Source of the DNA: Gammaproteobacteria bacterium
Lineage (GTDB): Bacteria; Pseudomonadota; Gammaproteobacteria; JACCXJ01
Reading direction: 5' to 3'
Assembly (NCBI GenBank): GCA_050740695.1
Contig: JBOIDR010000001.1
Coordinates: forward strand, 6,762 to 70,761
Length of the DNA: 64,000 nucleotides
Each line of letters begins with the position of its first letter. Position 1 is the stretch's first letter. Both the position numbers and the translations under genes were made by a program. Positions 29,564-40,600 of this stretch are shown here, piece by piece. A model generated the notes under the pieces. The model had not been told where the DNA came from and did not search any database. It saw only the letters and a list, made by a program, of their open reading frames with translations.

Positions 29564-30097
29564 TTACGCAAACTGGCTGGCGAGCTGTTGCAACCGCCCG
29601 CGCACCGAGGCATCGATCACCAGATCGCCCATGCGGATCACCGCCCCGCCTATGAGCGCCGGATCGATGCGGTGCTGCACCTCGATCTCCTTGCCGGCCT
29701 GCCGCCTCACCGCACGCTCGATCGCCAACCGCTGACCCTCTTCCAGCGCGAAGGCCGAGACCACCTCGACCTCGGCCACGCCCGCGGCCTCGGCAACGAG
29801 TGCCGCGTACAGGCGCGCGATCTCCGGAAGGATCAGGATCCGATCGGCATCCAGGAGCACGCGGACGAAGTTACGCAGATCCGGGGGGAGGCGTTCCCCG
29901 GCGAGGTCGAAGATCAACTGGGTCAGACGCGGGCGACCGATCCGTGGGTCATGCACGAGCGCGCGCAGGGTCGGATCCGAGAACAAAGCGGCGAGGAGGG
30001 CCAGTCCTTCGGACCAGGGCGACACCTGGCCGCTGCCGCGGGCATGCTCGAAGGCGGCCTGGGCATAGGGACGCGCGAGGGTCGCCGTTTCCAGCAT
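29564..30097 (-). CDS. atpH: F1 ATP synthase delta (OSCP) subunit
   Basis: 177 aa with TLARPYAQAAFEHA. Confidence 0.9.
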   Translation of the reverse strand: MLETATLARPYAQAAFEHARGSGQVSPWSEGLALLAALFSDPTLRALVHDPRIGRPRLTQLIFDLAGERLPPDLRNFVRVLLDADRILILPEIARLYAALVAEAAGVAEVEVVSAFALEEGQRLAIERAVRRQAGKEIEVQHRIDPALIGGAVIRMGDLVIDASVRGRLQQLASQFA

Positions 30098-30099
30098 GG

Positions 30100-30570
30100 T
30101 CAGAGCCGTGCCGCGAGCTTGTCGAGGAAGGCCTTGTGGGCCACGGCATCGACCTCGCGCAACAGAACCTGCTCGGCCCCGACCAGTGCCAGGCGCGCGA
30201 CCTCACGCTGTAGCGACTCCCGCGCCTGCTGGATCTCCTGGGCGATCTGATCCTGGGCGGCGGCGATGATGCGCTCGGCCTCGACCCTGGCAGCGGCCTT
30301 GGCCTCCTCGACCATCTCGTCGGCCCGTTTCTGCGCATAGGCGACCGCCTCCTGGGCCTTCTGGTGGCCTTCGCGCAGGACCGCCTTGGCACGGTTCTCG
30401 GCCAGCTCCAGATCATGCCGGCCCTTCTCCGCGGCGGCCAAGCCGTCGGCGATCTTCTTGGCGCGTTCTGCCATGGCCCGGGTGAGCGGCGGCCATACGA
30501 AACGCATGGTGAACCACACGAGGATCGCGAAGGTGATGGCCTGGCCTAAAAGAGTGGCGTTGATATCCAT
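30100..30570 (-). CDS. atpF: Fo ATP synthase subunit b
   Basis: 156 aa with one N-terminal TM helix followed by a long charged helix. Confidence 0.9.
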   Translation of the reverse strand: MDINATLLGQAITFAILVWFTMRFVWPPLTRAMAERAKKIADGLAAAEKGRHDLELAENRAKAVLREGHQKAQEAVAYAQKRADEMVEEAKAAARVEAERIIAAAQDQIAQEIQQARESLQREVARLALVGAEQVLLREVDAVAHKAFLDKLAARL

Positions 30571-30615
30571 GGCGATATCCCAACTATATTCCTACTGGGG
30601 GGCACGATCCCCGGG

Positions 30616-30918
<303 letters not shown>

Positions 30919-30936
30919 CTAGCGGTGTGCCTGCAA

Positions 30937-31749
<813 letters not shown>

Positions 31750-32196
31750 CTATTGCTTCCCCAACATCGCCAGGCCATAGGCCCCGAGCGTCGCGGCATA
31801 GGCGATAAAAAGCGGCCCCACCGCCACGGCCTCGTACTCGAGGAACGTCACGACGAAAAGACCGAGGGTAACCCCGAACTTGACCAGCTCCGCCAGGACT
31901 TGCGCGCCGAGCAGCCCGCCCGGCGACAGCCCTTTTGTTCGCGCGACACACAAGGCCGCGGCCGCGGTCGCCGCGATCCCGATGCCGCCACCGCAGAGCG
32001 CCGAGAGCGCAAAGCGGAGCTGGTAGATCACACAAACCAGCGCCACCGCCGCCGTCACGCCGATCTGGAGGACGAGGAGTCTCTGTATGTCCCTGTCCAA
32101 CCTACCCCGCGATGCGGCAGCGCGCCATGCTAGTGTAAGTGCCGATACCGAGTCAACTCGCTTCCCGCCGAGCCGAGACTGCCGGCCCGCCTTCAC
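31750..32196 (-). CDS. atpI: ATP synthase protein I (start uncertain)
   Basis: Small polytopic membrane protein directly upstream of atpB. The track ORF starts at TTG 32244, but that would overlap the preceding gene by 20 nt. An in-frame GTG at 32196 is used here. A later TTG is also possible. Confidence 0.55.
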   Translation of the reverse strand: MKAGRQSRLGGKRVDSVSALTLAWRAAASRGRLDRDIQRLLVLQIGVTAAVALVCVIYQLRFALSALCGGGIGIAATAAAALCVARTKGLSPGGLLGAQVLAELVKFGVTLGLFVVTFLEYEAVAVGPLFIAYAATLGAYGLAMLGKQ

Positions 32197-32224
32197 TAAC
32201 CACTGCCGAGGGCTCGGGTGCGCG

Positions 32225-32734
32225 TCAGGTGAACCAGAACGCAAGCTGAACGGCCAGCCACACCACGGTGGCGGCGACGAAACCGGTGGCAGCGCGCCGC
32301 GTCCACAGGTACTTCTTCTGCACGATCTTGGCGTTGACGTGCACCTGGGTCAAAACCTGGTCGAGCGCGTCCTCGACCGAGAGGCCCATGAACGCCCGCA
32401 CATAATCGGCCGGCTCCATCCCGTGTATGTCGCCAAAATAAAAGAGTGAGCGCTTGGCGACCGGGTGATGCGTGAGGCGCGGACGAAGTGCGAGGACCGC
32501 CGAGATCAAGGAGAATGCGAGCGTAGCCAGGAGCACCCAATAGGCGATCGAGGGGATCAGGTGCTCTTCCGACTTGAGCTGGGAAAACGCCTGCTGTCCG
32601 GTCAAGGTCAGCGCGGCGACAAAGATCGCGGAGCCCGCGAAGAGCGCGCGGATCTTCTCGTCCGTGGCGCGGATCTGGGCGTGCAGGTTATCCAGGATCT
32701 GGACGGCGAGCCGCAACGCCTCGGCATTCGACAT
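32225..32734 (-). CDS. DUF5706 / Pycsar-effector-like three-TM membrane protein (assignment from memory of the family pattern)
   Basis: Start at ATG 32734 (MSNAEALRLAVQILDNLHAQIRATDEKIRALFAGSAIFVAAL...); an alternative ATG is at 32761. The layout is an amphipathic N-helix with a ..H..I...D.K motif, two TM helices, LRPR......S.F.FG.I....EY, then ..Q......I...KY......A plus a third TM helix. Confidence 0.45.
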   Translation of the reverse strand: MSNAEALRLAVQILDNLHAQIRATDEKIRALFAGSAIFVAALTLTGQQAFSQLKSEEHLIPSIAYWVLLATLAFSLISAVLALRPRLTHHPVAKRSLFYFGDIHGMEPADYVRAFMGLSVEDALDQVLTQVHVNAKIVQKKYLWTRRAATGFVAATVVWLAVQLAFWFT

Positions 32735-32841
32735 TGTCCCGGTCCGCTGCCCGGGCTCCATGACGGAAACCGGGTGCGGGGCCGAGGTGTCCTTGCGAGC
32801 ACCCCGTCCGGCCGGCGAGGCGCGCATGCCGGTACGCCTGG

Positions 32842-35112
32842 TCAAGGGGCCGGTAACTCGATTACCGGGGGGGCGATTACCGGGCGGGCGGGCACCGGGC
32901 GGCGGCCGGGGATCCGCCTTATCGCCGACATTTCGGTCCCCGCGGAGGGATCCGTAAGCTGATCGACCGTTGGGGGATCGACCGCTGTGGGATCGGCCGC
33001 CGGGGCGTCTACACTGGTTCGCGCGACGGGTGCGACCGGGCGGACGCGGACTGCCCCATCGGCGCCTGCCGAGGCCAATCGCAAGCCATCGGGGCTCACG
33101 GCCACGTCGTAGACCGCCCCACCCTCGCCCTCGAACCGAGCGACGGCCCGGCAAGTGGCTAGGTCCCACACCCGCACGCTGCCATCCGCGCTGCCCGAGT
33201 AGAGCGAGACACTATCCGGGCTCACGGCTACATCGTAGACCGCGCCACTGTGCCCGGTACATGCCGTCCCTTTGCGACCCGACACGGGATCGGGAGTGGC
33301 GAGATCCCAGATCCGGACCGTGCCATCCCAGCTCGCGGTCGCGAGGCGTGCGCCGTCGGGGCTGAAGGCGACTTTGTAGACCCGGCCCGCATGAGCGGTG
33401 AGGGTGGTGAGCCGCTTGCCGGTGGCGGTCTCCCAGACGCGCACGGTCCCGTCCCGCCCGGCCGTGGCGAGCCGCGATCCATCGGGGCTGAAAGCGAGGC
33501 CATAGACCCGTCCGGGATGGCCTTCCCGGCTCCACAGCGCCTGGCCCGTCACGGTATCCCAGCGCCTGACGGTGCCGTCCGCCCCCGCGGTCGCGAGCCA
33601 CGAGCCGTCGGGCGCGAACACGACGCCGTACACCGCGCCCGCATGGCCCTCGCCCCCATGGCCATCGATGGCGAGCACGGCCTTGCCGGAGGCGCCGTCG
33701 AATACGCGTGTCTTGCCATCCGACCCCACCGTTGCGAGGCGTGAGCCGTCGGAGCTCATGGCCACGCCGAAGCGGGGTGTGCCGCCATCCTCCAGGACCG
33801 CGAGCGCCTGCCCGGAAGCGCGCTCCCACAGCGTCGTCGTGCCGTCCCAGCCGCTCGTGACGAGCCTCGCACCGTCGGGGCTCATGGCCACGCCGTAGAC
33901 CGCGGCGCCATGGCCCCTGAGCTTGGCGAGCGCGGCCCCGGTACCCGCCTCCCATAGCCGCACCATGCGGTCCTCCCCGCCCGTGGCCACGACTGTCCCG
34001 GCCGGATCCATCGCGACGCCGAAGACCGCGGCCGTATGGCCCTTGGCCTTCCACAGCGCTTTCCCTGAGTCCGGTGCCCACATCCGCACCGTGCGGTCGC
34101 CACCGGTAGTGCAGAGCGATCCGTCCCGGGCAAACGCGACGCCGTAGACCGCGGCGTCGTGGCCTTTCAGCGTACCAAGCGCCTGGCCGGATGCGGCGTC
34201 GAACAGTCGCACCGTACCATCCTCGCCGGCGGTTGCGAGGCGTGACCCATCCCGACTGTAGGCGATACCGAAAACACGGCCCTCCTGCCCTGCGCGCACA
34301 AAGAGCGGAGTGCCCGACGCCACTTCCCATACCCGCACGCTGCCGTCCTCGCCGGCGGACGCGAGCCGCTGCCCATCCGGGCTCACGACGATGCCATAGA
34401 CGCGGCCGCTGTGGCCCTCGATACGCAGCAGGGGAACACCCGAGACGGCGTCCCACAACCGTACGCCGCCGTCACCGGCCGTGGCCAAGTGCCGTCCATC
34501 CGGGCTGTAGGCGATGCCGAAGAGGGGTGCGTCCGGGCCGTCGAGCGTCAGGATCTCGCTCCCCGTCGCGACGTCGTAGATCCGCGCCGTGCCGTCCTCA
34601 CCCGCGACGGCGAACCGTGAGCGATCGGGATGGAAAGCGACCCCGTAGAGCGCCCCGCCGGGAAGGGCGATCTTCAGGGACTCCCGGCCCGTCCCCGCTT
34701 CCCACACCCGTGCGGTCCCATCGAGAGCGGCAGTCGCGAGCCGCTGTCCATCGCCGCTGTAGGCAAGCCCCCAGACCCCATCCGTGTGACCACGGAAAGT
34801 CAGCGGCGGTGGCGCGATACCGAGACTGTCCATTTCCTGGTCCGCGGGCGCGGCTGAGGTCGGATCTGCCGCGGCAGCGGCGTCGCGCCGACTGTCCGCC
34901 CGGTCGACCGCCACAGGGCCGACGCGCGACGGGCGGGTCGCTGCGATCAAGGCCGGCGAGCCCGAAAGCTCTTGCGCCGGTTCCCCGATCGGACCTTGTG
35001 CCGCCAGACCATTGCCGTGGGCGAGCAGGGCGATGAGCGACACGAGCAGGGACGCACACGCGCAACCGAAGAGCTTGAAACGCAAAGACATTGCAAGGCA
35101 CGAGGACATCAC
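32842..35112 (-). CDS. Exported WD40-repeat protein, 14 repeats (two predicted 7-bladed propellers)
   Basis: 756 aa. N-terminal hydrophobic signal/anchor (LFGCACASLLVSLIALLAHG). I counted 14 units of the type GH.G.VYGVAFSPDG.RLATAG.DGTVRVW(D/E)..TG. The tail is Pro/Ala-rich. Confidence 0.85.
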   Translation of the reverse strand: MMSSCLAMSLRFKLFGCACASLLVSLIALLAHGNGLAAQGPIGEPAQELSGSPALIAATRPSRVGPVAVDRADSRRDAAAAADPTSAAPADQEMDSLGIAPPPLTFRGHTDGVWGLAYSGDGQRLATAALDGTARVWEAGTGRESLKIALPGGALYGVAFHPDRSRFAVAGEDGTARIYDVATGSEILTLDGPDAPLFGIAYSPDGRHLATAGDGGVRLWDAVSGVPLLRIEGHSGRVYGIVVSPDGQRLASAGEDGSVRVWEVASGTPLFVRAGQEGRVFGIAYSRDGSRLATAGEDGTVRLFDAASGQALGTLKGHDAAVYGVAFARDGSLCTTGGDRTVRMWAPDSGKALWKAKGHTAAVFGVAMDPAGTVVATGGEDRMVRLWEAGTGAALAKLRGHGAAVYGVAMSPDGARLVTSGWDGTTTLWERASGQALAVLEDGGTPRFGVAMSSDGSRLATVGSDGKTRVFDGASGKAVLAIDGHGGEGHAGAVYGVVFAPDGSWLATAGADGTVRRWDTVTGQALWSREGHPGRVYGLAFSPDGSRLATAGRDGTVRVWETATGKRLTTLTAHAGRVYKVAFSPDGARLATASWDGTVRIWDLATPDPVSGRKGTACTGHSGAVYDVAVSPDSVSLYSGSADGSVRVWDLATCRAVARFEGEGGAVYDVAVSPDGLRLASAGADGAVRVRPVAPVARTSVDAPAADPTAVDPPTVDQLTDPSAGTEMSAIRRIPGRRPVPARPVIAPPVIELPAP

Positions 35113-35178
35113 GGAGGGCGCCTGATCCTGATTCTGACCGGAGTACTGTCGATCACGGTCCCGGGCGTATTCCGGATC

Positions 35179-35655
35179 TCAGCCACACCTCGTGGTGAAG
35201 TCGAAGGTGGTACGGACGTTCGATCCCACGAGTTCGGTGTCGGCGGTCACCGTGAGATCGGCTAAGGTGGAGGTGCTCCGGACGATGTCACCGCCGAGGT
35301 TAACCGGAGAGCCGAAACCTCCAGCCGAGCCGTTGCTCAGGACCCATGTGTCGCCATTGGGGAAGACGACGAGCGGGTCGACAGACCAGGTTGCCTCTTC
35401 GGCCGCGGCGATATCGGTGTAGCGAAAGTACCCGTTGAAGGGGACCAGGCCGTTGTTCGCCTCTCCGCCGTTGACCTCTACCGAAGTCGTCGGATCCGAC
35501 AGGATCACCGGGCTCGCCGGCACGAGACCCGGGCTGAGACACATGCAGAACGCTACTCCGATCCAGCGGAGCGAGGGTGGCCTCGGCTGCCGAGGAGGGC
35601 GGGGTACGGCCCTCTGGTGACGGTGCGGTTCGGCTTCAAAGCTCTTGCTCCTCAT
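35179..35655 (-). CDS. Hypothetical small exported protein (beta-rich, Gly/Asn/Thr-rich)
   Basis: Start trimmed to ATG 35655 (MRSKSFEAEPHRH...). It has a basic N-region plus the hydrophobic segment WIGVAFCMCLSPGLVPASP. No recognisable family. Co-directional with, and 66 nt upstream of, the WD40 gene. Confidence 0.45.
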   Translation of the reverse strand: MRSKSFEAEPHRHQRAVPRPPRQPRPPSLRWIGVAFCMCLSPGLVPASPVILSDPTTSVEVNGGEANNGLVPFNGYFRYTDIAAAEEATWSVDPLVVFPNGDTWVLSNGSAGGFGSPVNLGGDIVRSTSTLADLTVTADTELVGSNVRTTFDFTTRCG

Positions 35656-35875
35656 GGTTCCGTCCGTCCTCCACTTAAAGGTTCCTGTTAGGGAGTGTAA
35701 AGGGTACGCCCGCACGGGGTAAAGTCGCTGCGGATGCGCCTGGCCCCCACCCTACCCCTCCCCCGCTAGGCGCAGGGGAGGGAACCCAGGGAACCCCGGC
35801 GCCCCCGTCCCAGCGCCAATCGAGCATCCGGCCGGCCAGGTTGCAAGACCACGAGATACTTCCTATCCTTCAGCC

Positions 35876-36322
35876 ATGCAAGTAGCCAAGAAAACCTACG
35901 AGCAAGACTTTCAGGCCTGGGCGCTAGAGAACGCGGTGCTCTTGCGCCAAGGAAGACTGGCCGACATCGACGCGCTCCATATCGCCGAGGAGCTCGAAAG
36001 CATGGGCGCGAGTGAACGCCGTGAGCTGCAAAGCCGCTTACGGGTGCTGGCGCTCCATCTGCTCAAATATCAGTACCAGCCGGAGTGCCGCGGGAAGAGC
36101 TGGCTCCTGACCATAGGCCATCAAAGAGACGCCATCGATAGCCTGTTGAAACAGTCCCCGAGTTTGCGTCCGCTCCTGGATGACGCGGAGGAAATGGCGG
36201 ACATCTACGCCAAGGCGCTCCGGGATGCGGTGATCGAGACCGAGCTGGACCGCCACCTCTTCCCGGTGAGATGCCCATACGCCATCGACCAGCTCCTCGA
36301 TGGCGATTTTCTTCCGGATTGA
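35876..36322 (+). CDS. DUF29 domain-containing protein
   Basis: 148 aa with YEQDFQAWALENAVLLRQGRLADIDALHIAEELESMGASERRELQSRL, the canonical DUF29 opening. Confidence 0.85.
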   Translation: MQVAKKTYEQDFQAWALENAVLLRQGRLADIDALHIAEELESMGASERRELQSRLRVLALHLLKYQYQPECRGKSWLLTIGHQRDAIDSLLKQSPSLRPLLDDAEEMADIYAKALRDAVIETELDRHLFPVRCPYAIDQLLDGDFLPD

Positions 36323-36345
36323 GTCCCTGGCCAAAATACCCGCAG

Positions 36346-36410
36346 CCCGGATGTAGCGCAGCGGGATCCGGGGAGGCCGTCCCGGTGCACTTCGTTTCAT
36401 CCGGGCTACG
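36346..36410. repeat. REP-like inverted pair (cccggatgtagcgcagcgggatccggg ... catccgggctacg)
   Basis: Same GTAGC..GG family as 16612..16768. Confidence 0.6.
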
Positions 36411-36418
36411 GCAGCCGG

Positions 36419-36733
<315 letters not shown>

Positions 36734-36745
<12 letters not shown>

Positions 36746-37549
36746 ATGGGCGGCGACGGTACGCAGGCGCGCGAGCTCGTGCGGGGTCAGCGGGCGGCGC
36801 TCGGCGTCCCGCACCTCCCCGCCCAGCGCCTCGGCGAGCCGGCAGGCGCCATGCAGCAGGAGCTCGAACGCCAACCGCCCCTCGACCGGCACGGGCAGGC
36901 GCATGATCAAGAGCACCCCCTCGGTGCGGGCGCTCGCGAGGGTGTTGAGGTCGAAGCTCCCGGGCTCCAGCATGTTCACGAGGCAGTACAGGCCCGTGGG
37001 GGACGCCAGCCGGCCCACCCCATGGTAATGAAAGACCTTCATCTCCCCGAAGCGCATCCCGAGATCTTCGGCCGCGTCGCGGATCGCGCTGCCGGTGAAA
37101 TCCCGGCCGGGAGGCGCGATGACATACAGGATGATGGCCTCCGGGCCTGATTTTTCCGACCCGCCCTTCCCGGCCATGGCGCCAGCTTTGCGCTTGACCA
37201 AGCGGCCTTTCATCGCCCACGTCTGGAACCAGCCCCACGACTCGGGGACTTTGCGGATGCCCGCCAGGGCATCTCGGATCCGACTCGGACGGATCGGCGC
37301 GTGGCCGGACTCGACCACGAGGTTGCTCAGATCGCTCAGGGTGCGGGTGTAATCGACCGGTGCCTCGGTGTCTTGGCTCGGCGGCCGGGCGGCCTTCGGC
37401 AACGGGACCGCGGGCTCGCCGGGGCGAGACGGTCTGCGGCCCCCGATCCTTTTTCGGCGTTTGTTTCCCCGGCCCCGCATTCCCCAGAAATAAACGCCCG
37501 CCACCACCATGAGCCCGATCAAGAGAAGCGCGACCCGCAATTCGTTCAT
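36734..37549 (-). CDS. zipA: Cell division protein ZipA
   Basis: 271 aa with an N-terminal TM anchor (LRVALLLIGLMVVAGVYFWG), a basic/Pro-rich linker and a C-terminal FtsZ-binding-type domain. Confidence 0.85.
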
Positions 37550-37603
37550 AGATAAGGGCCCACTCGGAAACCAGCCTCCGACATAACGATGCGCGGGTCC
37601 GTG

Positions 37604-40600
37604 CTAGCCGGTCGCGGCCAGGCGCACCGCCTCGTCCACATCCACGGCGACGAGGCGCGACACCCCGGGTTCCTGCATGGTCACGCCCACCAAACGGTGG
37701 GCGATCTCCATGGTGATCTTATTGTGGGTGATGAACAGGAACTGGACGTCTTCGGACATCGATCCGAGGAACCGGCACAGGTGCGCGGCGTTGGCGTCGT
37801 CGAGCGGCGCGTCGACCTCGTCGAGCAGGCAGAACGGCGCGGGGTGGAGCTTGAATAGCGCGAACACCAGCGCCAGGGCCGTGAGCGCCTTCTCGCCCCC
37901 GGAGAGCAGATGGATGCTGTTGTTGCGCTTGCCGGGTGGGCGGGCCATAACGGTGACGCCCGTCTCCAGGAGGTCCTTGCCGCAGAGCTCCAGGTGGGCC
38001 TCGCCACCGCCGAAAAGGCCCGGGAAGAGGACGCCGAGATGGGCATCCAGCTGTTCGAAGGTTTCCTTGAACCGGCCGCGGGTGTCCCCGTCGATGCGCC
38101 GGATGGCATCCCCCAGGGTCGCCAGCGCCGCGGTGAGATCGGCGTGCTGGCCGTCGAGATAGGTCTTGCGCTCCCCGAGCGCCTCGAATTCCTCCATGGC
38201 CGCGAGGTTCACGGCCCCGAGCCGCGCCAGCCGCTCGCCGATACGCGTGAGCCGCTCCTCGAACGCGGCCGGCAGGGCGTCCTCGGGCAGTGCGGCGAGC
38301 AATTCGTCGAGCACGAGCCCCTGTCCCGCGAGCCGCTCCCGGCAAGCCTCGAGACGCACCCGCAGGTTCTCGCGTGCCAGCCGCGCCTCCTCCAGGCGCT
38401 CGCGGTACGCATGGGCCTCGCGCTCGCGGAGGAGGCGCCGCTCCGCCGCCTCCCGCAGGGCCGCATCCCGGCGCTCCAATGCGGCACGCGCCTCGCTGAG
38501 CTCGGCCTCCACCGACAGCTGCACCTCCAGCGCCCCGGGCAGGGCCTGTTCCAGGGCAGTCAAGGGCCCCAGACCCTCGGCCAGGGCCGAGCGCAGCTCA
38601 CGGCAGCGCGCCTCGAGCTGCTCCACGGCCTCGGACTCCCGCAGTTCGCCCTCGCAGAGGACCCCGTAGCGGGTCCTCAGGGACTCGATCCTGAGCGACA
38701 ACGCGTGGCTCTCTTCGCGCGCCACCCGCCAGGCCTCGCGGGCGGTCGACAGGGCCGGACCCAGCGCCCCTCTGCGGGCCTTCAAGGCCAGGCGTTGTGT
38801 CCCGGTCTCCGCGACCGCCGCACGAAGGGTCAGCAGCCGTACCGTGCTCATGGCCTCGTCGTCCGCGTCGCGCATCCCTTGGGCCTCCAGCGCCGCGATC
38901 TCCTGCGTCAGCGCGGCCAACCGCAGCGCACGCTGTGCCTTCGCGGCCTCCGCCGCGGCCAGCTCGGAGCGCACACCGGCCACGACCTCCTGGGCGCGGG
39001 CGATGGCCGCCTGAAGCTCGCATTCTTCGGTCTCCAGGCGCGTGCCGGTCTCACGCGCGTCCCGTGCCTCGTGCAGGGAACCCTCGATGGCCGCCTCCAG
39101 CCCCGCGCGCTGCGCCTCCAGGGCCTGGATCTCCTGCTGCCTTTCGATAACCCCCGCCCGGCCCGGGACGCGCCCGGTCCGTCGCAGCCAGTCCGGCCCG
39201 ATCTGGACCCCGTCGCGGGTCACCAGGGACTCGGCGGCATGGAGACCGGTGCGCAGCGCCAGCGCCTCATCCAGCCCTTCGGCGGCGTACACGCCGCCGA
39301 GCACGCCGTCGAGCCCAATCGGACTTTGGATCTTTTCTGTCAACAAGGCCGCCGCGGCCCCGGACGGACGGAGCGGCGCCGGGCCCGCTCCTGCCTCGAT
39401 CAGACCCACGCCATGCTCGCCCAGATCGGGCAGTACACGGGCCACCTCGGCCAGCGACCCCACCGAGAAGGCGCCCAGCCAATCCCCCAGCACCGACTCG
39501 ACCGCGGGTTCCCACCCGGCCTCGACTCGAATGTGCTCGAAGAGGGGCACGGGCGCGGCCGTTCCGGCCAGGGCGAGCCACTCCCGCACCGCCCCGTCGT
39601 GGCCATCCACCGCCGCTTCCTGCAGCGTAGCCAGTGAGGACAGACGCCCGAGCGCGGTCGCGAGCACCTCGCGCAACTCGCCCAGGTGGCGGTTCAGCGC
39701 GTCGCGCCGCGCGCGCCCTTCGCGCAGGGCCTCGCGATTGTCCGCGCACTCGGACTCGAGCCGGTGGAGGACTGCTCCTGCCTCGCTCAGGCGGCTTTCG
39801 AACACCGCGATCTCATCGCTACCAGCAAGCGCCTCCAGGCGCCCGCGCTCGTCGTGCATCGTCCCGAGACGCGCTTGCCGCTCGGCCCGCCGTTCCGCCA
39901 GGTGGACCGCATGCGCGGCCAGCGCAGACTCCTCGCTACTCCGCTGCGCGCCCTCCGCGTTCGCCGTGTCCCACTCGGATTGCCAGCCTTCCATGGCCTC
40001 TTCGCAAAGGCAGAGGCCCTCGAAGGCCGATCCCTCGACCAGGCGGGCCTCCCGCGAACGCGGCTCCAAAAGCGCGATCTCTTCGCTCGTGCGCGCGATG
40101 GCCGCGCGCGCCTCCGCGCGCCGGGCCTCGCCCTCTTCGAGCGCGCGGCCGGCGCGTTCGAGCTCGGCCATGAGCCCTTCGCGTCGCTCCCGGGCATGGC
40201 CGATCGCCTGTTCGAGCCGGGCGATCTCCGCCCCGGCCCGGTAATACCGACCCTGTACCTCGTCGAAGCCCTCGCGCGCCTGCCATTCGTCGGCGCGCCC
40301 TGCCTCGAGCTCGGCCTCCACCGAGCGCAAGGCCGCGAGGGCCGCCTCGACCTCGGTCTCGCACTCGACGGTCAGCCGTTCCTGTACCTCCGATCCCTGC
40401 GACAGAGTCCGGACGGACAGCGCCAGGAGCTGGCCTTTGACCAGGCGCTCGTCGTCGCTGAGCCGCTTGTACCGGGCCGCCGCCCTGGCCTGTTGCTGTA
40501 GGCGTTCGAGCTGCCGGTCGAGCTCCGCGCGCAGATCGTCGAGCCGCGCCAGGTTTTCGCGGGCGTGCCGGATGCGGATCTCGGTCTCGTGGCGGCGCTC

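What the first reader, a model, noticed from the sequence alone, without database searches (positions are those of the whole stretch)
32842..35655. Exported 14-repeat WD40 protein with a small exported partner, inserted upstream of the ATP synthase operon
The 756-aa protein has an N-terminal signal/anchor sequence and 14 very regular WD40 units, enough for two 7-bladed propellers. It ends in a Pro/Ala-rich tail. It is preceded, 66 nt upstream on the same strand, by a 158-aa beta-rich protein that has a signal-like N-terminus and no recognisable family. Both genes point into the DUF5706-like gene and atpI. WD40 proteins with this repeat regularity are common in cyanobacteria, actinobacteria and eukaryotes. 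An exported one is unusual for a gammaproteobacterial-type genome. Its position between the conserved smc-zipA-ligA block and atpI suggests acquired DNA. The function is unknown; periplasmic scaffold, receptor or conflict-system component are only guesses.
Basis: partly seen in the sequence, partly recalled or inferred. Interest (0 to 1): 0.6.

Follow-up and report, generated by a model that had tools for sequence, protein, structure and literature searches.

The report
Exported WD40 propeller with PycTM-type membrane partner

Summary
The 756-aa gene (32842-35112, minus strand) is real. It has a conserved Sec-type signal peptide, a disordered linker, 14 WD40 repeats modelled as two seven-bladed propellers, and a Pro/Ala tail ending in a conserved RRIPGRxPV motif.

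The 158-aa upstream "partner" is not a partner. It is the N-terminal 40% of a ~275-aa secreted family, some of whose members carry a PEP-CTERM anchor. It is truncated at a rearrangement junction and absent from 40 related genomes.

The conserved neighbour is the downstream PycTM/DUF5706 three-helix membrane protein, whose likely start lies 14 nt after the WD40 stop. WD40-PycTM lies directly before the atp promoter in eight of the ten genomes or contigs of this clade. It is absent from sister genera. No cyclase is adjacent, so this is not a canonical Pycsar system.

An unrelated metagenomic lineage repeats the pairing: PycTM at 38% identity is coupled to an exported lipoprotein-type WD40 protein. 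Other PycTM subfamilies are fused or adjacent to exported DUF3616/phytase-like or DUF11/CARDB domains.

Best reading: a cyclase-independent envelope module with an extracytoplasmic propeller and a PycTM membrane part. Its function is untested, and PycTM is broken in three clade members while WD40 stays intact.

The parts
32842..35112 (-). Exported WD40 protein, 756 aa. Signal peptide is aa 1-38 (34999-35112). Disordered linker is aa 39-103 (34804-34998). The 14 WD40 repeats, two 7-bladed propellers, are aa 104-692 (33037-34803). The Pro/Ala tail with RRIPGRRPV...ELPAP is aa 693-756 (32845-33036).
   Evidence: ORF; Pfam WD40 436.7 bits; AF2 model; fold match 2YMU. Nine orthologues are intact, with dN/dS 0.27-0.47. 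Signal-peptide features are conserved. The tail motif is conserved and unique in the genome.
32225..32827 (-). PycTM/DUF5706-family membrane protein with three long helices. The long form is 200 aa, from an ATG 14 nt after the WD40 stop. The short form is 169 aa, from the ATG at 32734.
   Evidence: Pfam PF18967 72.4 bits against a cut-off of 27.2. PADLOC PycTM 88.9 bits over the full profile. Translation of the long form. The region after the WD40 stop is conserved in frame, with GGAGG 9 nt before the ATG in G002 and an ATGA overlap in L036. AF2 model pLDDT 75.6; dN/dS 0.15-0.25.
32127..32156 (-). Sigma-70-like promoter of the atp operon (TTGACT-18-TAGCAT), between the PycTM stop and the atpI start (TTG at 32100).
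   Evidence: It is the only promoter-like site in 31600-36500. The sequence is conserved in every genus member that still has the atp operon downstream, and in L037.
31750..32100 (-). atpI, first gene of the F-type ATP synthase operon. It is context, not part of the module.
   Evidence: Pfam ATP-synt_I. Homologues of 115-117 aa start at the equivalent position.
35179..35655 (-). Truncated remnant of a ~275-aa secreted family, some of whose members carry a PEP-CTERM anchor. Only the N-terminal ~110 residues of the mature domain remain, and the C-terminal half is missing.
   Evidence: Homologues P0003-P0011. The alignment shows truncation after TTFDFT. The missing half is not elsewhere in the genome. 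Absent from 40 relatives. Homology among relatives upstream of WD40 ends about 25-30 nt before the start codon in the window.
35876..36322 (+). DUF29 gene. It belongs to the conserved zipA-ligA-DUF29 block, not to the WD40 unit.
   Evidence: Pfam DUF29 154 bits. It is 85-92% identical and follows ligA in G002 and G003; in G004 only a 32-residue remnant (88% identical) follows ligA.
36419..36745 (-). Internally deleted ligA remnant: about 25 N-terminal codons joined to the BRCT domain.
   Evidence: Sequence reading; BRCT hit. Syntenic ligA is full length in G002, G003 and G004. A second ligA lies on contig C65.

Best explanation
The locus is a two-gene envelope unit.

Gene 1 encodes a Sec-exported protein with a cleavable signal peptide, probably cut after LAA. 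A flexible linker follows, then two seven-bladed WD40 propellers, then a disordered Pro/Ala tail with a conserved RRIPGRxPV motif.

Gene 2 probably starts 14 nt after the stop of gene 1. It encodes a PycTM/DUF5706-family inner-membrane protein. By the positive-inside rule the N-terminus and the large loop are cytoplasmic, the first loop is short and periplasmic, and the C-terminus is periplasmic.

The unit entered the lineage once, at or before the base of the genus, directly upstream of the atp promoter.

Inferred mechanism: the propeller is the extracytoplasmic binding or sensing part, and PycTM is the membrane part. In Pycsar a cytoplasmic cyclic nucleotide triggers PycTM. Here the trigger would be replaced by an extracytoplasmic protein-protein input, which ends in a change of membrane permeability or in membrane docking. 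No cyclase takes part.

The 158-aa upstream ORF is a gene fragment left by a rearrangement. That rearrangement joined the smc-zipA-(deleted ligA)-DUF29 block to this unit.

Shown: anatomy, export signals, conservation, adjacency, and recurrence of the pairing.
Inferred: physical interaction, direction of signalling, and physiological role.
For: Conservation of the pair:
- WD40 and PycTM are adjacent in all five genomes of the genus. They are also adjacent on five metagenome contigs, L036-L039 and L132, with WD40 identity down to 63%.
- L038 keeps the pair without the atp operon.
- Spacing is tight: 14 nt to the conserved ATG, GGAGG in G002, an ATGA overlap in L036, and no terminator-like site between the genes.
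- Both genes are under purifying selection.

Export signal:
- Its features are kept in nine of nine orthologues although the sequence itself drifts.

Independent recurrence:
- In L127 and L128 a PycTM of 38% identity is followed 1 nt after its stop by a 696-aa protein. That protein has a lipoprotein-type signal (LLAC), a Pro/Thr linker and WD40 propellers that are only 28-33% identical to this one.

Other PycTM subfamilies carry extracytoplasmic beta-rich domains:
- A DUF3616/phytase-like domain is fused after the last TM helix in G139 and G176. The same domain is a separate signal-peptide protein next to PycTM in G327, and lies nearby in G577 and G723.
- A same-genus paralogue is a YHS-PycTM-DUF11/CARDB fusion.

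No cyclase:
- None lies on the window's contig; the seven Guanylate_cyc matches in the genome are on other contigs.
- Only 3 of 37 PycTM loci sampled in the class and phylum have an adjacent cyclase.
Against: - PycTM is frameshifted in G003 and L039, cut off by foreign DNA in L038, and lacks 57 codons in G001. WD40 is intact in nine of nine. WD40 therefore works, or at least persists, without PycTM.
- PycTM exposes only about 12 loop residues and its C-terminal end to the periplasm, which is a small surface for a 600-residue propeller.
- None of the best 150 of 474 representative homologues is a WD40 fusion.
- Only one lineage outside the clade shows the WD40 pairing, among roughly 55 loci inspected.
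- The WD40 shows no hypervariable surface positions of the kind seen in immune sensors.
- Signal-peptide assignment rests on simple rules, not on SignalP.
Confidence: 0.5

Rival explanations
1. The two genes are neighbours by descent only. The exported WD40 double propeller is a self-sufficient periplasmic scaffold, a functional analogue of TolB or BamB. The PycTM gene is an orphan, slowly decaying effector that happens to lie between it and the atp promoter.
For: PycTM is disrupted or truncated in 4 of 10 clade members while WD40 is always intact. Sister genus G005 keeps PycTM (69% identity) alone among Uma2 and PIN genes. Most PycTM-family genes in the class are orphans beside housekeeping genes. 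All clade members are closely related (dS 0.13-0.79), so synteny could be inertia.
Against: The same pairing, translationally coupled and in inverted order, occurs in an unrelated lineage. Spacing in the clade is 14 nt or an overlap. The pair stays together in L038 after separation from atp.
Confidence: 0.3
2. A split Pycsar system. The PycTM protein is a normal cyclic-nucleotide-activated abortive-infection pore, driven in trans by one of the class III cyclases encoded elsewhere in the genome. WD40 is unrelated, or only modulates it.
For: PADLOC PycTM models match over their full length. The genome has seven Guanylate_cyc-domain genes. The close relative P0168 (42% identity) is coupled to a cyclase-AAA_16-TPR protein. 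By phmmer the window PycTM matches PycTMs of two cyclase-adjacent loci (L107, L109).
Against: No cyclase lies on the window's contig. Known Pycsar systems are two-gene operons (PMC11224242, PMC13069673). None of the ten clade loci has a cyclase next to the pair.
Confidence: 0.1
3. The N-terminal hydrophobic segment is an uncleaved signal-anchor. The propeller is then tethered to the inner membrane by its own helix and meets PycTM within the bilayer.
For: In the window protein the hydrophobic stretch is 18 residues long, with a 19-residue Kyte-Doolittle mean of 2.19. AF2 draws a helix at residues 19-31. The distant analogue in L127 is also membrane-tethered, by a lipid anchor.
Against: In most orthologues the core is only 11-13 residues long, with a 19-residue mean of 1.2-1.9. 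It is followed by a conserved small-residue LAA/AAA site typical of signal peptidase I.
Confidence: 0.15
4. The pair serves the ATP synthase, for example as an assembly or regulatory factor, because it sits immediately before atpI and may read into it.
For: Its position directly upstream of atpI is constant in eight clade members. No terminator-like hairpin with a T-run lies between PycTM and atpI.
Against: A conserved promoter-like element lies between PycTM and atpI. Sister genera with 80-85% identical AtpB lack both genes. L038 and L127 carry the pair away from any atp genes. L036 has another gene inserted before atpI.
Confidence: 0.04

Closest known systems
Pycsar (PycC cyclase + PycTM effector; Tal et al. 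2021, as summarised in PMC11224242)
   Same: The downstream gene is a sequence member of the PycTM family (PF18967 72 bits; PADLOC PycTM 89 bits, full length). It is a small multi-helix membrane protein. In Pycsar, PycTM is proposed to disrupt the membrane by forming a membrane-spanning pore.
   Different: No adjacent cyclase. The conserved partner is a Sec-exported WD40 protein, so any input would come from outside the cytoplasm. PycTM is dispensable in several clade members.
Npun_R6612-type 14-repeat WD40 proteins (PDB 2YMU), and the WD40 arrays of bacterial Ser/Thr kinases and nSTAND/NB-ARC NTPases
   Same: Fourteen regular 42-residue WD40 repeats forming two 7-bladed propellers. Identity is 36% to 2YMU and 40-47% to kinase- or STAND-linked arrays.
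   Different: Those arrays sit at the C-terminus of kinase or NTPase domains, which have no export signal. This protein has no enzymatic domain and instead carries a signal peptide.
Periplasmic beta-propeller scaffolds TolB and BamB
   Same: Sec-exported propellers that act by binding partner proteins or short peptides in the envelope.
   Different: Different repeat families. NCBIfam scores are far below the cut-offs (TolB 27.6 against 343; BamB 20 against 285). This protein has two propellers, not one.
PycTM-DUF3616/phytase-like fusions and pairs, and YHS-PycTM-DUF11/CARDB fusions (found here; I found no description of them)
   Same: A PycTM-family membrane module combined with an extracytoplasmic beta-rich domain and no cyclase. 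The separate DUF3616-type proteins carry Sec signal peptides.
   Different: The extracytoplasmic domain is not WD40. The DUF3616-linked PycTMs form another subfamily in the tree.
Exported WD40 proteins with small membrane-protein partners noted earlier in this scan (e1-1089551, e1-1261441)
   Same: Signal-peptide WD40 propellers encoded beside small membrane proteins in accessory islands.
   Different: Those membrane partners belong to no known family or accompany a caspase. None was reported as PycTM. Not checked here.

Membership tests
WD40 repeat proteins (PF00400) | Multiple ~40-residue WD repeats scoring above the Pfam gathering threshold | tested here: met
   436.7 bits against a cut-off of 27, in 13 stretches. 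Fourteen repeats delimited.
WD40 repeat proteins (PF00400) | Beta-propeller fold | tested here: met
   AF2 residues 100-695 at pLDDT 83-93, all beta. Foldseek match to 2YMU at E 3e-32, and to two-propeller proteins such as 1NR0 and Apaf-1.
Sec-exported proteins (signal peptidase I type) | Positively charged n-region, hydrophobic h-region of 7-15 residues, and small residues at -3/-1 | tested here: met
   Found in nine of nine orthologues by rule-based script and alignment. SignalP and DeepTMHMM were not available.
Sec-exported proteins (signal peptidase I type) | Actual translocation and cleavage | not testable with these tools
   Needs reporter fusions or N-terminal sequencing.
Pycsar anti-phage system | Effector of the PycTM family | tested here: met
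   PF18967 at 72.4 bits. PADLOC PDLC02363 at 88.9 bits, covering positions 5-149 of 154.
Pycsar anti-phage system | Adjacent PycC class III nucleotide cyclase | tested here: not met
   All seven Guanylate_cyc matches in the genome lie on other contigs. No cyclase lies beside the pair in any clade locus.
Pycsar anti-phage system | Activation by cCMP/cUMP and protection against phage | not testable with these tools
   Experimental.
TolB / BamB periplasmic propellers | NCBIfam equivalog score above cut-off | tested here: not met
   TolB 27.6 against 343.15; BamB 20 against 285.2.
PEP-CTERM secreted proteins (for the 158-aa ORF) | Homology of the N-terminal domain to family members | tested here: met
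   46-58% identity over about 110 residues to P0003-P0006 and P0011.
PEP-CTERM secreted proteins (for the 158-aa ORF) | C-terminal PEP-CTERM sorting motif (PF07589) | tested here: not met
   The ORF stops about 140 residues before the anchor. No Pfam hit. The missing half is not found in the genome.

The most novel reading that the evidence does not exclude
PycTM/DUF5706 proteins are not only cyclic-nucleotide-gated Pycsar effectors. A sizeable part of the family forms cyclase-independent envelope modules. In these, an extracytoplasmic beta-rich domain, encoded next door or fused after the last helix, senses something outside the cytoplasm and gates or positions the membrane module. The domain can be a WD40 double propeller, a DUF3616/phytase-like domain or DUF11/CARDB. 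What is sensed could be a phage part, an envelope defect or a neighbouring cell. The WD40-PycTM pair would then be a periplasm-sensing abortive-infection or envelope-stress device.
Probability: 0.2. Interest if true: 0.7.

Novelty: new variant of a known kind. Interest (0 to 1): 0.5.

Why it matters
PycTM is currently understood only as the membrane effector of Pycsar, switched on by cyclic pyrimidines made in the cytoplasm.

In my sample of Pseudomonadota genomes most family members have no cyclase next to them. A recurrent minority is joined to exported or extracytoplasmic beta-rich domains instead. The WD40 pair seen here has now been found in two unrelated lineages.

If the pairing is functional, two things follow. 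First, it would show how a known defence effector fold is reused with an input from outside the cell. Second, it would give exported bacterial WD40 propellers, for which I know of no assigned role, a first testable partner.

The work also corrects three annotation traps:
- The "small partner" is a pseudogene fragment.
- The label "Pycsar effector" does not imply a Pycsar system.
- The apparent insertion is a genus-level feature, joined in this genome to a rearrangement.

Tried and rejected
- Small ORF as partner: rejected. It is truncated, unique to this genome, and its homologues have no WD40 neighbour.
- Recent insertion in this genome: rejected.
- GC content as a sign of foreign origin: uninformative.
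- Lipoprotein or Tat signal on the window WD40: there is no conserved lipobox and no twin-arginine motif.
- Shared C-terminal sorting tag: the RRIPGR/ELPAP motif occurs in no other real ORF of the genome.
- Diversifying sensor surface: no hypervariable repeat positions.
- Amyloid-motif pairing as in BASS/Bell systems (preprint 10.1101/2020.01.06.895854): I saw no motif shared between the WD40 tail and PycTM by eye.
- PDB fold relatives of PycTM: none (best E 0.039, TM 0.36).
- PDB sequence relatives of the DUF3616-type domain: none.
- WD40-PycTM fusion proteins: none among the best 150 representatives.
- Rfam families in 30000-38000: none.
- The homology search with the full WD40 returned only long kinase- or STAND-linked arrays and no orthologues. 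It was useful only for the alignment.
- An alignment of 16 PycTM sequences was too diverse for the metagenome scan. A 5-sequence alignment worked.
Full report
**What is there.** The window region 32100-36800 holds these genes on the minus strand, in transcription order:
- an internally deleted ligA remnant (36419-36745);
- a 158-aa ORF (35179-35655);
- the 756-aa WD40 ORF (32842-35112);
- a PycTM/DUF5706 gene (32225-32734, or to 32827 from an upstream ATG);
- atpI and the rest of the atp operon.

A DUF29 gene lies on the plus strand at 35876-36322. The source is a 265-contig, 89.5%-complete genome assembled from a metagenome. It belongs to an uncultured gammaproteobacterial lineage.

**The WD40 protein.**
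- Pfam WD40 scores 436.7 bits, and I delimit 14 repeats of about 42 residues.
- The repeats are 60-79% identical at DNA level with a 126-nt period. They are regular but not recently homogenised.
- An AlphaFold2 model built from 29 sequences gives pLDDT 83-93 for residues 100-695, all beta. Residues 1-98 and 697-756 have low confidence.
- The best solved-structure match is 2YMU, a Nostoc protein with two seven-bladed WD40 propellers (E 3e-32, 36% identity). Other two-propeller proteins follow.
- Its closest sequence relatives outside the clade are the WD40 arrays of planctomycete Ser/Thr kinases and actinobacterial nSTAND/NB-ARC NTPases, at 40-47% identity.

**Export.** Nine orthologues extend through the start. 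In all of them:
- the start codon sits at the same position (GTG, or ATG in L036);
- the n-region carries +2 to +7 net charge;
- an 11-residue hydrophobic core has a Kyte-Doolittle mean of 1.95-2.73;
- a conserved G-x-x-L-A-A-(E/Q/D) stretch follows.

The 19-residue hydropathy is mostly below 2, and L037 has a core of only about 13 residues. This fits a cleavable Sec signal better than an anchor. The linker after it varies freely and is nearly absent in L037. There is no lipobox, no Tat motif and no further TM-like segment. These are rule-based judgements, because SignalP was not available.

**The small "partner".** It matches residues ~16-134 of ~275-aa proteins that have a signal peptide. 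Two of these carry the PEP-CTERM motif.
- It stops just after TTFDFT, about 140 residues short, and the missing half is nowhere in the genome.
- None of 40 relatives, including four of the same genus, has it.
- Full-length homologues on two long contigs have no WD40 neighbour.
- Upstream of the WD40 start, homology between the window and its relatives ends about 25-30 nt before the start codon.

The fragment therefore sits at a rearrangement junction.

**What is conserved.**
- WD40-PycTM-atpI-atpB-atpE is shared by all five genomes of the genus.
- It is also on contigs L036, L037, L039 and L132, with WD40 identity down to 63%.
- L038 keeps WD40-PycTM without atp, among transposases.
- The sequence upstream of WD40 differs in every genome.
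- Sister genera have other genes before atpI, and no WD40 or PycTM there.
- In G002 and G003 zipA is followed by a full-length ligA and DUF29, on other contigs than WD40. G004 has the full-length ligA and only a short DUF29 remnant.

So the unit was acquired at or before the base of the genus. In this genome two conserved blocks were later joined, with a gene fragment between them.

**Operon structure.**
- A conserved ATG lies 14 nt after the WD40 stop and opens a 200-aa form of PycTM.
- G002 has GGAGG 9 nt before that ATG. L036 has an ATGA overlap. The stretch stays in frame across the clade.
- The only sigma-70-like site in 31600-36500 is TTGACT-18-TAGCAT at 32156-32127, between PycTM and atpI. 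It is conserved in every genus member that still has the atp operon downstream, and in L037.

WD40-PycTM is thus probably one transcript, and atp has its own promoter.

**Selection and decay.**
- Pairwise dN/dS against the window copy is 0.27-0.47 for WD40, 0.15-0.25 for PycTM and 0.11-0.15 for atpB.
- WD40 is intact in nine of nine orthologues.
- PycTM carries two 1-nt deletions in G003 and a -5/+2 pair in L039.
- It is cut off by foreign DNA in L038 and lacks 57 codons in G001.
- WD40 shows no hypervariable repeat positions.

**Is it Pycsar?** By sequence the membrane protein is a PycTM-family member. No cyclase is on this contig, and the seven Guanylate_cyc genes are elsewhere. I inspected 37 PF18967 loci sampled from 800 genomes of the class and phylum:
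- 3 have an adjacent cyclase;
- 5 have a DUF3616/phytase-like domain, fused in two, adjacent with its own signal peptide in one, and nearby in two;
- none has a WD40.

The family label therefore does not imply a Pycsar system.

**Recurrence of the pairing.** A search of 1.84 billion representatives found 474 homologues. The best 150 are almost all stand-alone proteins, and none is a WD40 fusion. Their contexts vary:
- P0168 is coupled to a cyclase-AAA_16-TPR protein.
- P0167 sits next to an HD-domain gene.
- P0169 (38% identity) is followed 1 nt after its stop by a 696-aa protein. That protein has a lipoprotein-type signal peptide, a Pro/Thr linker and WD40 propellers only 28-33% identical to the window protein.

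A same-genus paralogue is a YHS-PycTM-DUF11/CARDB fusion. In the tree, the window clade, P0167, P0168 and P0169 share one supported subfamily, while the DUF3616-linked proteins form another. By the positive-inside rule the C-terminus of PycTM faces outward, which fits the position of all fused domains.

**Reading.** The best-supported account is a cyclase-independent envelope module: an extracytoplasmic WD40 double propeller plus a PycTM-type membrane protein. The interaction and the biological role are inferred, not shown. The main counter-evidence is that WD40 persists where PycTM is broken. The chief rival is that the two genes are neighbours by descent only.

Noticed in passing
window 36419-36745; G000:C65 (L084:4812-6848): The ligA that follows zipA is reduced to about 25 N-terminal codons plus the BRCT domain. 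The syntenic ligA is full length in G002, G003 and G004, and is also internally deleted in G001. A second, only ~50% identical, 678-aa ligA lies on contig C65 and presumably took over.
   Followed up: partly
L127:5001-7605 and L128:389-2258: An unrelated metagenomic lineage has PycTM (38% identity) translationally coupled to a 696-aa lipoprotein-type exported WD40 protein. The gene order is inverted relative to the window.
   Followed up: yes
L072:5975-7615, L068:7029-8522, L063:3692-5275, L102, L104: PycTM-family proteins are fused to, or encoded next to, a ~300-aa DUF3616/phytase-like domain. When encoded separately that domain has its own Sec signal peptide. I found no description of this architecture.
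   Followed up: partly
L133:143-1762, L134:1422-2984, L035 (G003:C107): A same-genus paralogue of PycTM (87-88% identity) is a 539-aa fusion of YHS, PycTM and DUF11/CARDB. The copy in G003 is frameshifted.
   Followed up: partly
L124:218-4938: PycTM (42% identity) overlaps the start of a 1378-aa protein with Guanylate_cyc, AAA_16 and TPR domains. This looks like a Pycsar-like system whose cyclase is fused to a STAND-type NTPase with a repeat sensor.
   Followed up: no
window 33649-33663 (WD40 aa 484-488): Blade 10 of the window protein has a 5-residue tandem insertion (GHGGE before GHAG). It is absent from the four orthologues aligned and from G002 and G004 by eye.
   Followed up: no
window 33152-33259 (WD40 Cys618 and Cys654): Two cysteines in blades 12-13 are invariant in the five orthologues aligned.
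   Followed up: no
window 35716-35875: The spacer between the truncated fragment and DUF29 is G-rich and contains a CCCCACCCTACCCCTC-type element. A similar copy lies inside the WD40 gene (repeat family D8).
   Followed up: no
L034 (G005:C419): In the sister genus the PycTM orthologue (69% identity) lies alone between three Uma2-like endonuclease genes and a PIN-domain gene, named by eye from their sequences. This looks like an accessory or toxin-antitoxin-type neighbourhood.
   Followed up: no
L036:8580-8894: One clade member has an extra 104-aa gene of unknown family inserted between PycTM and atpI.
   Followed up: no
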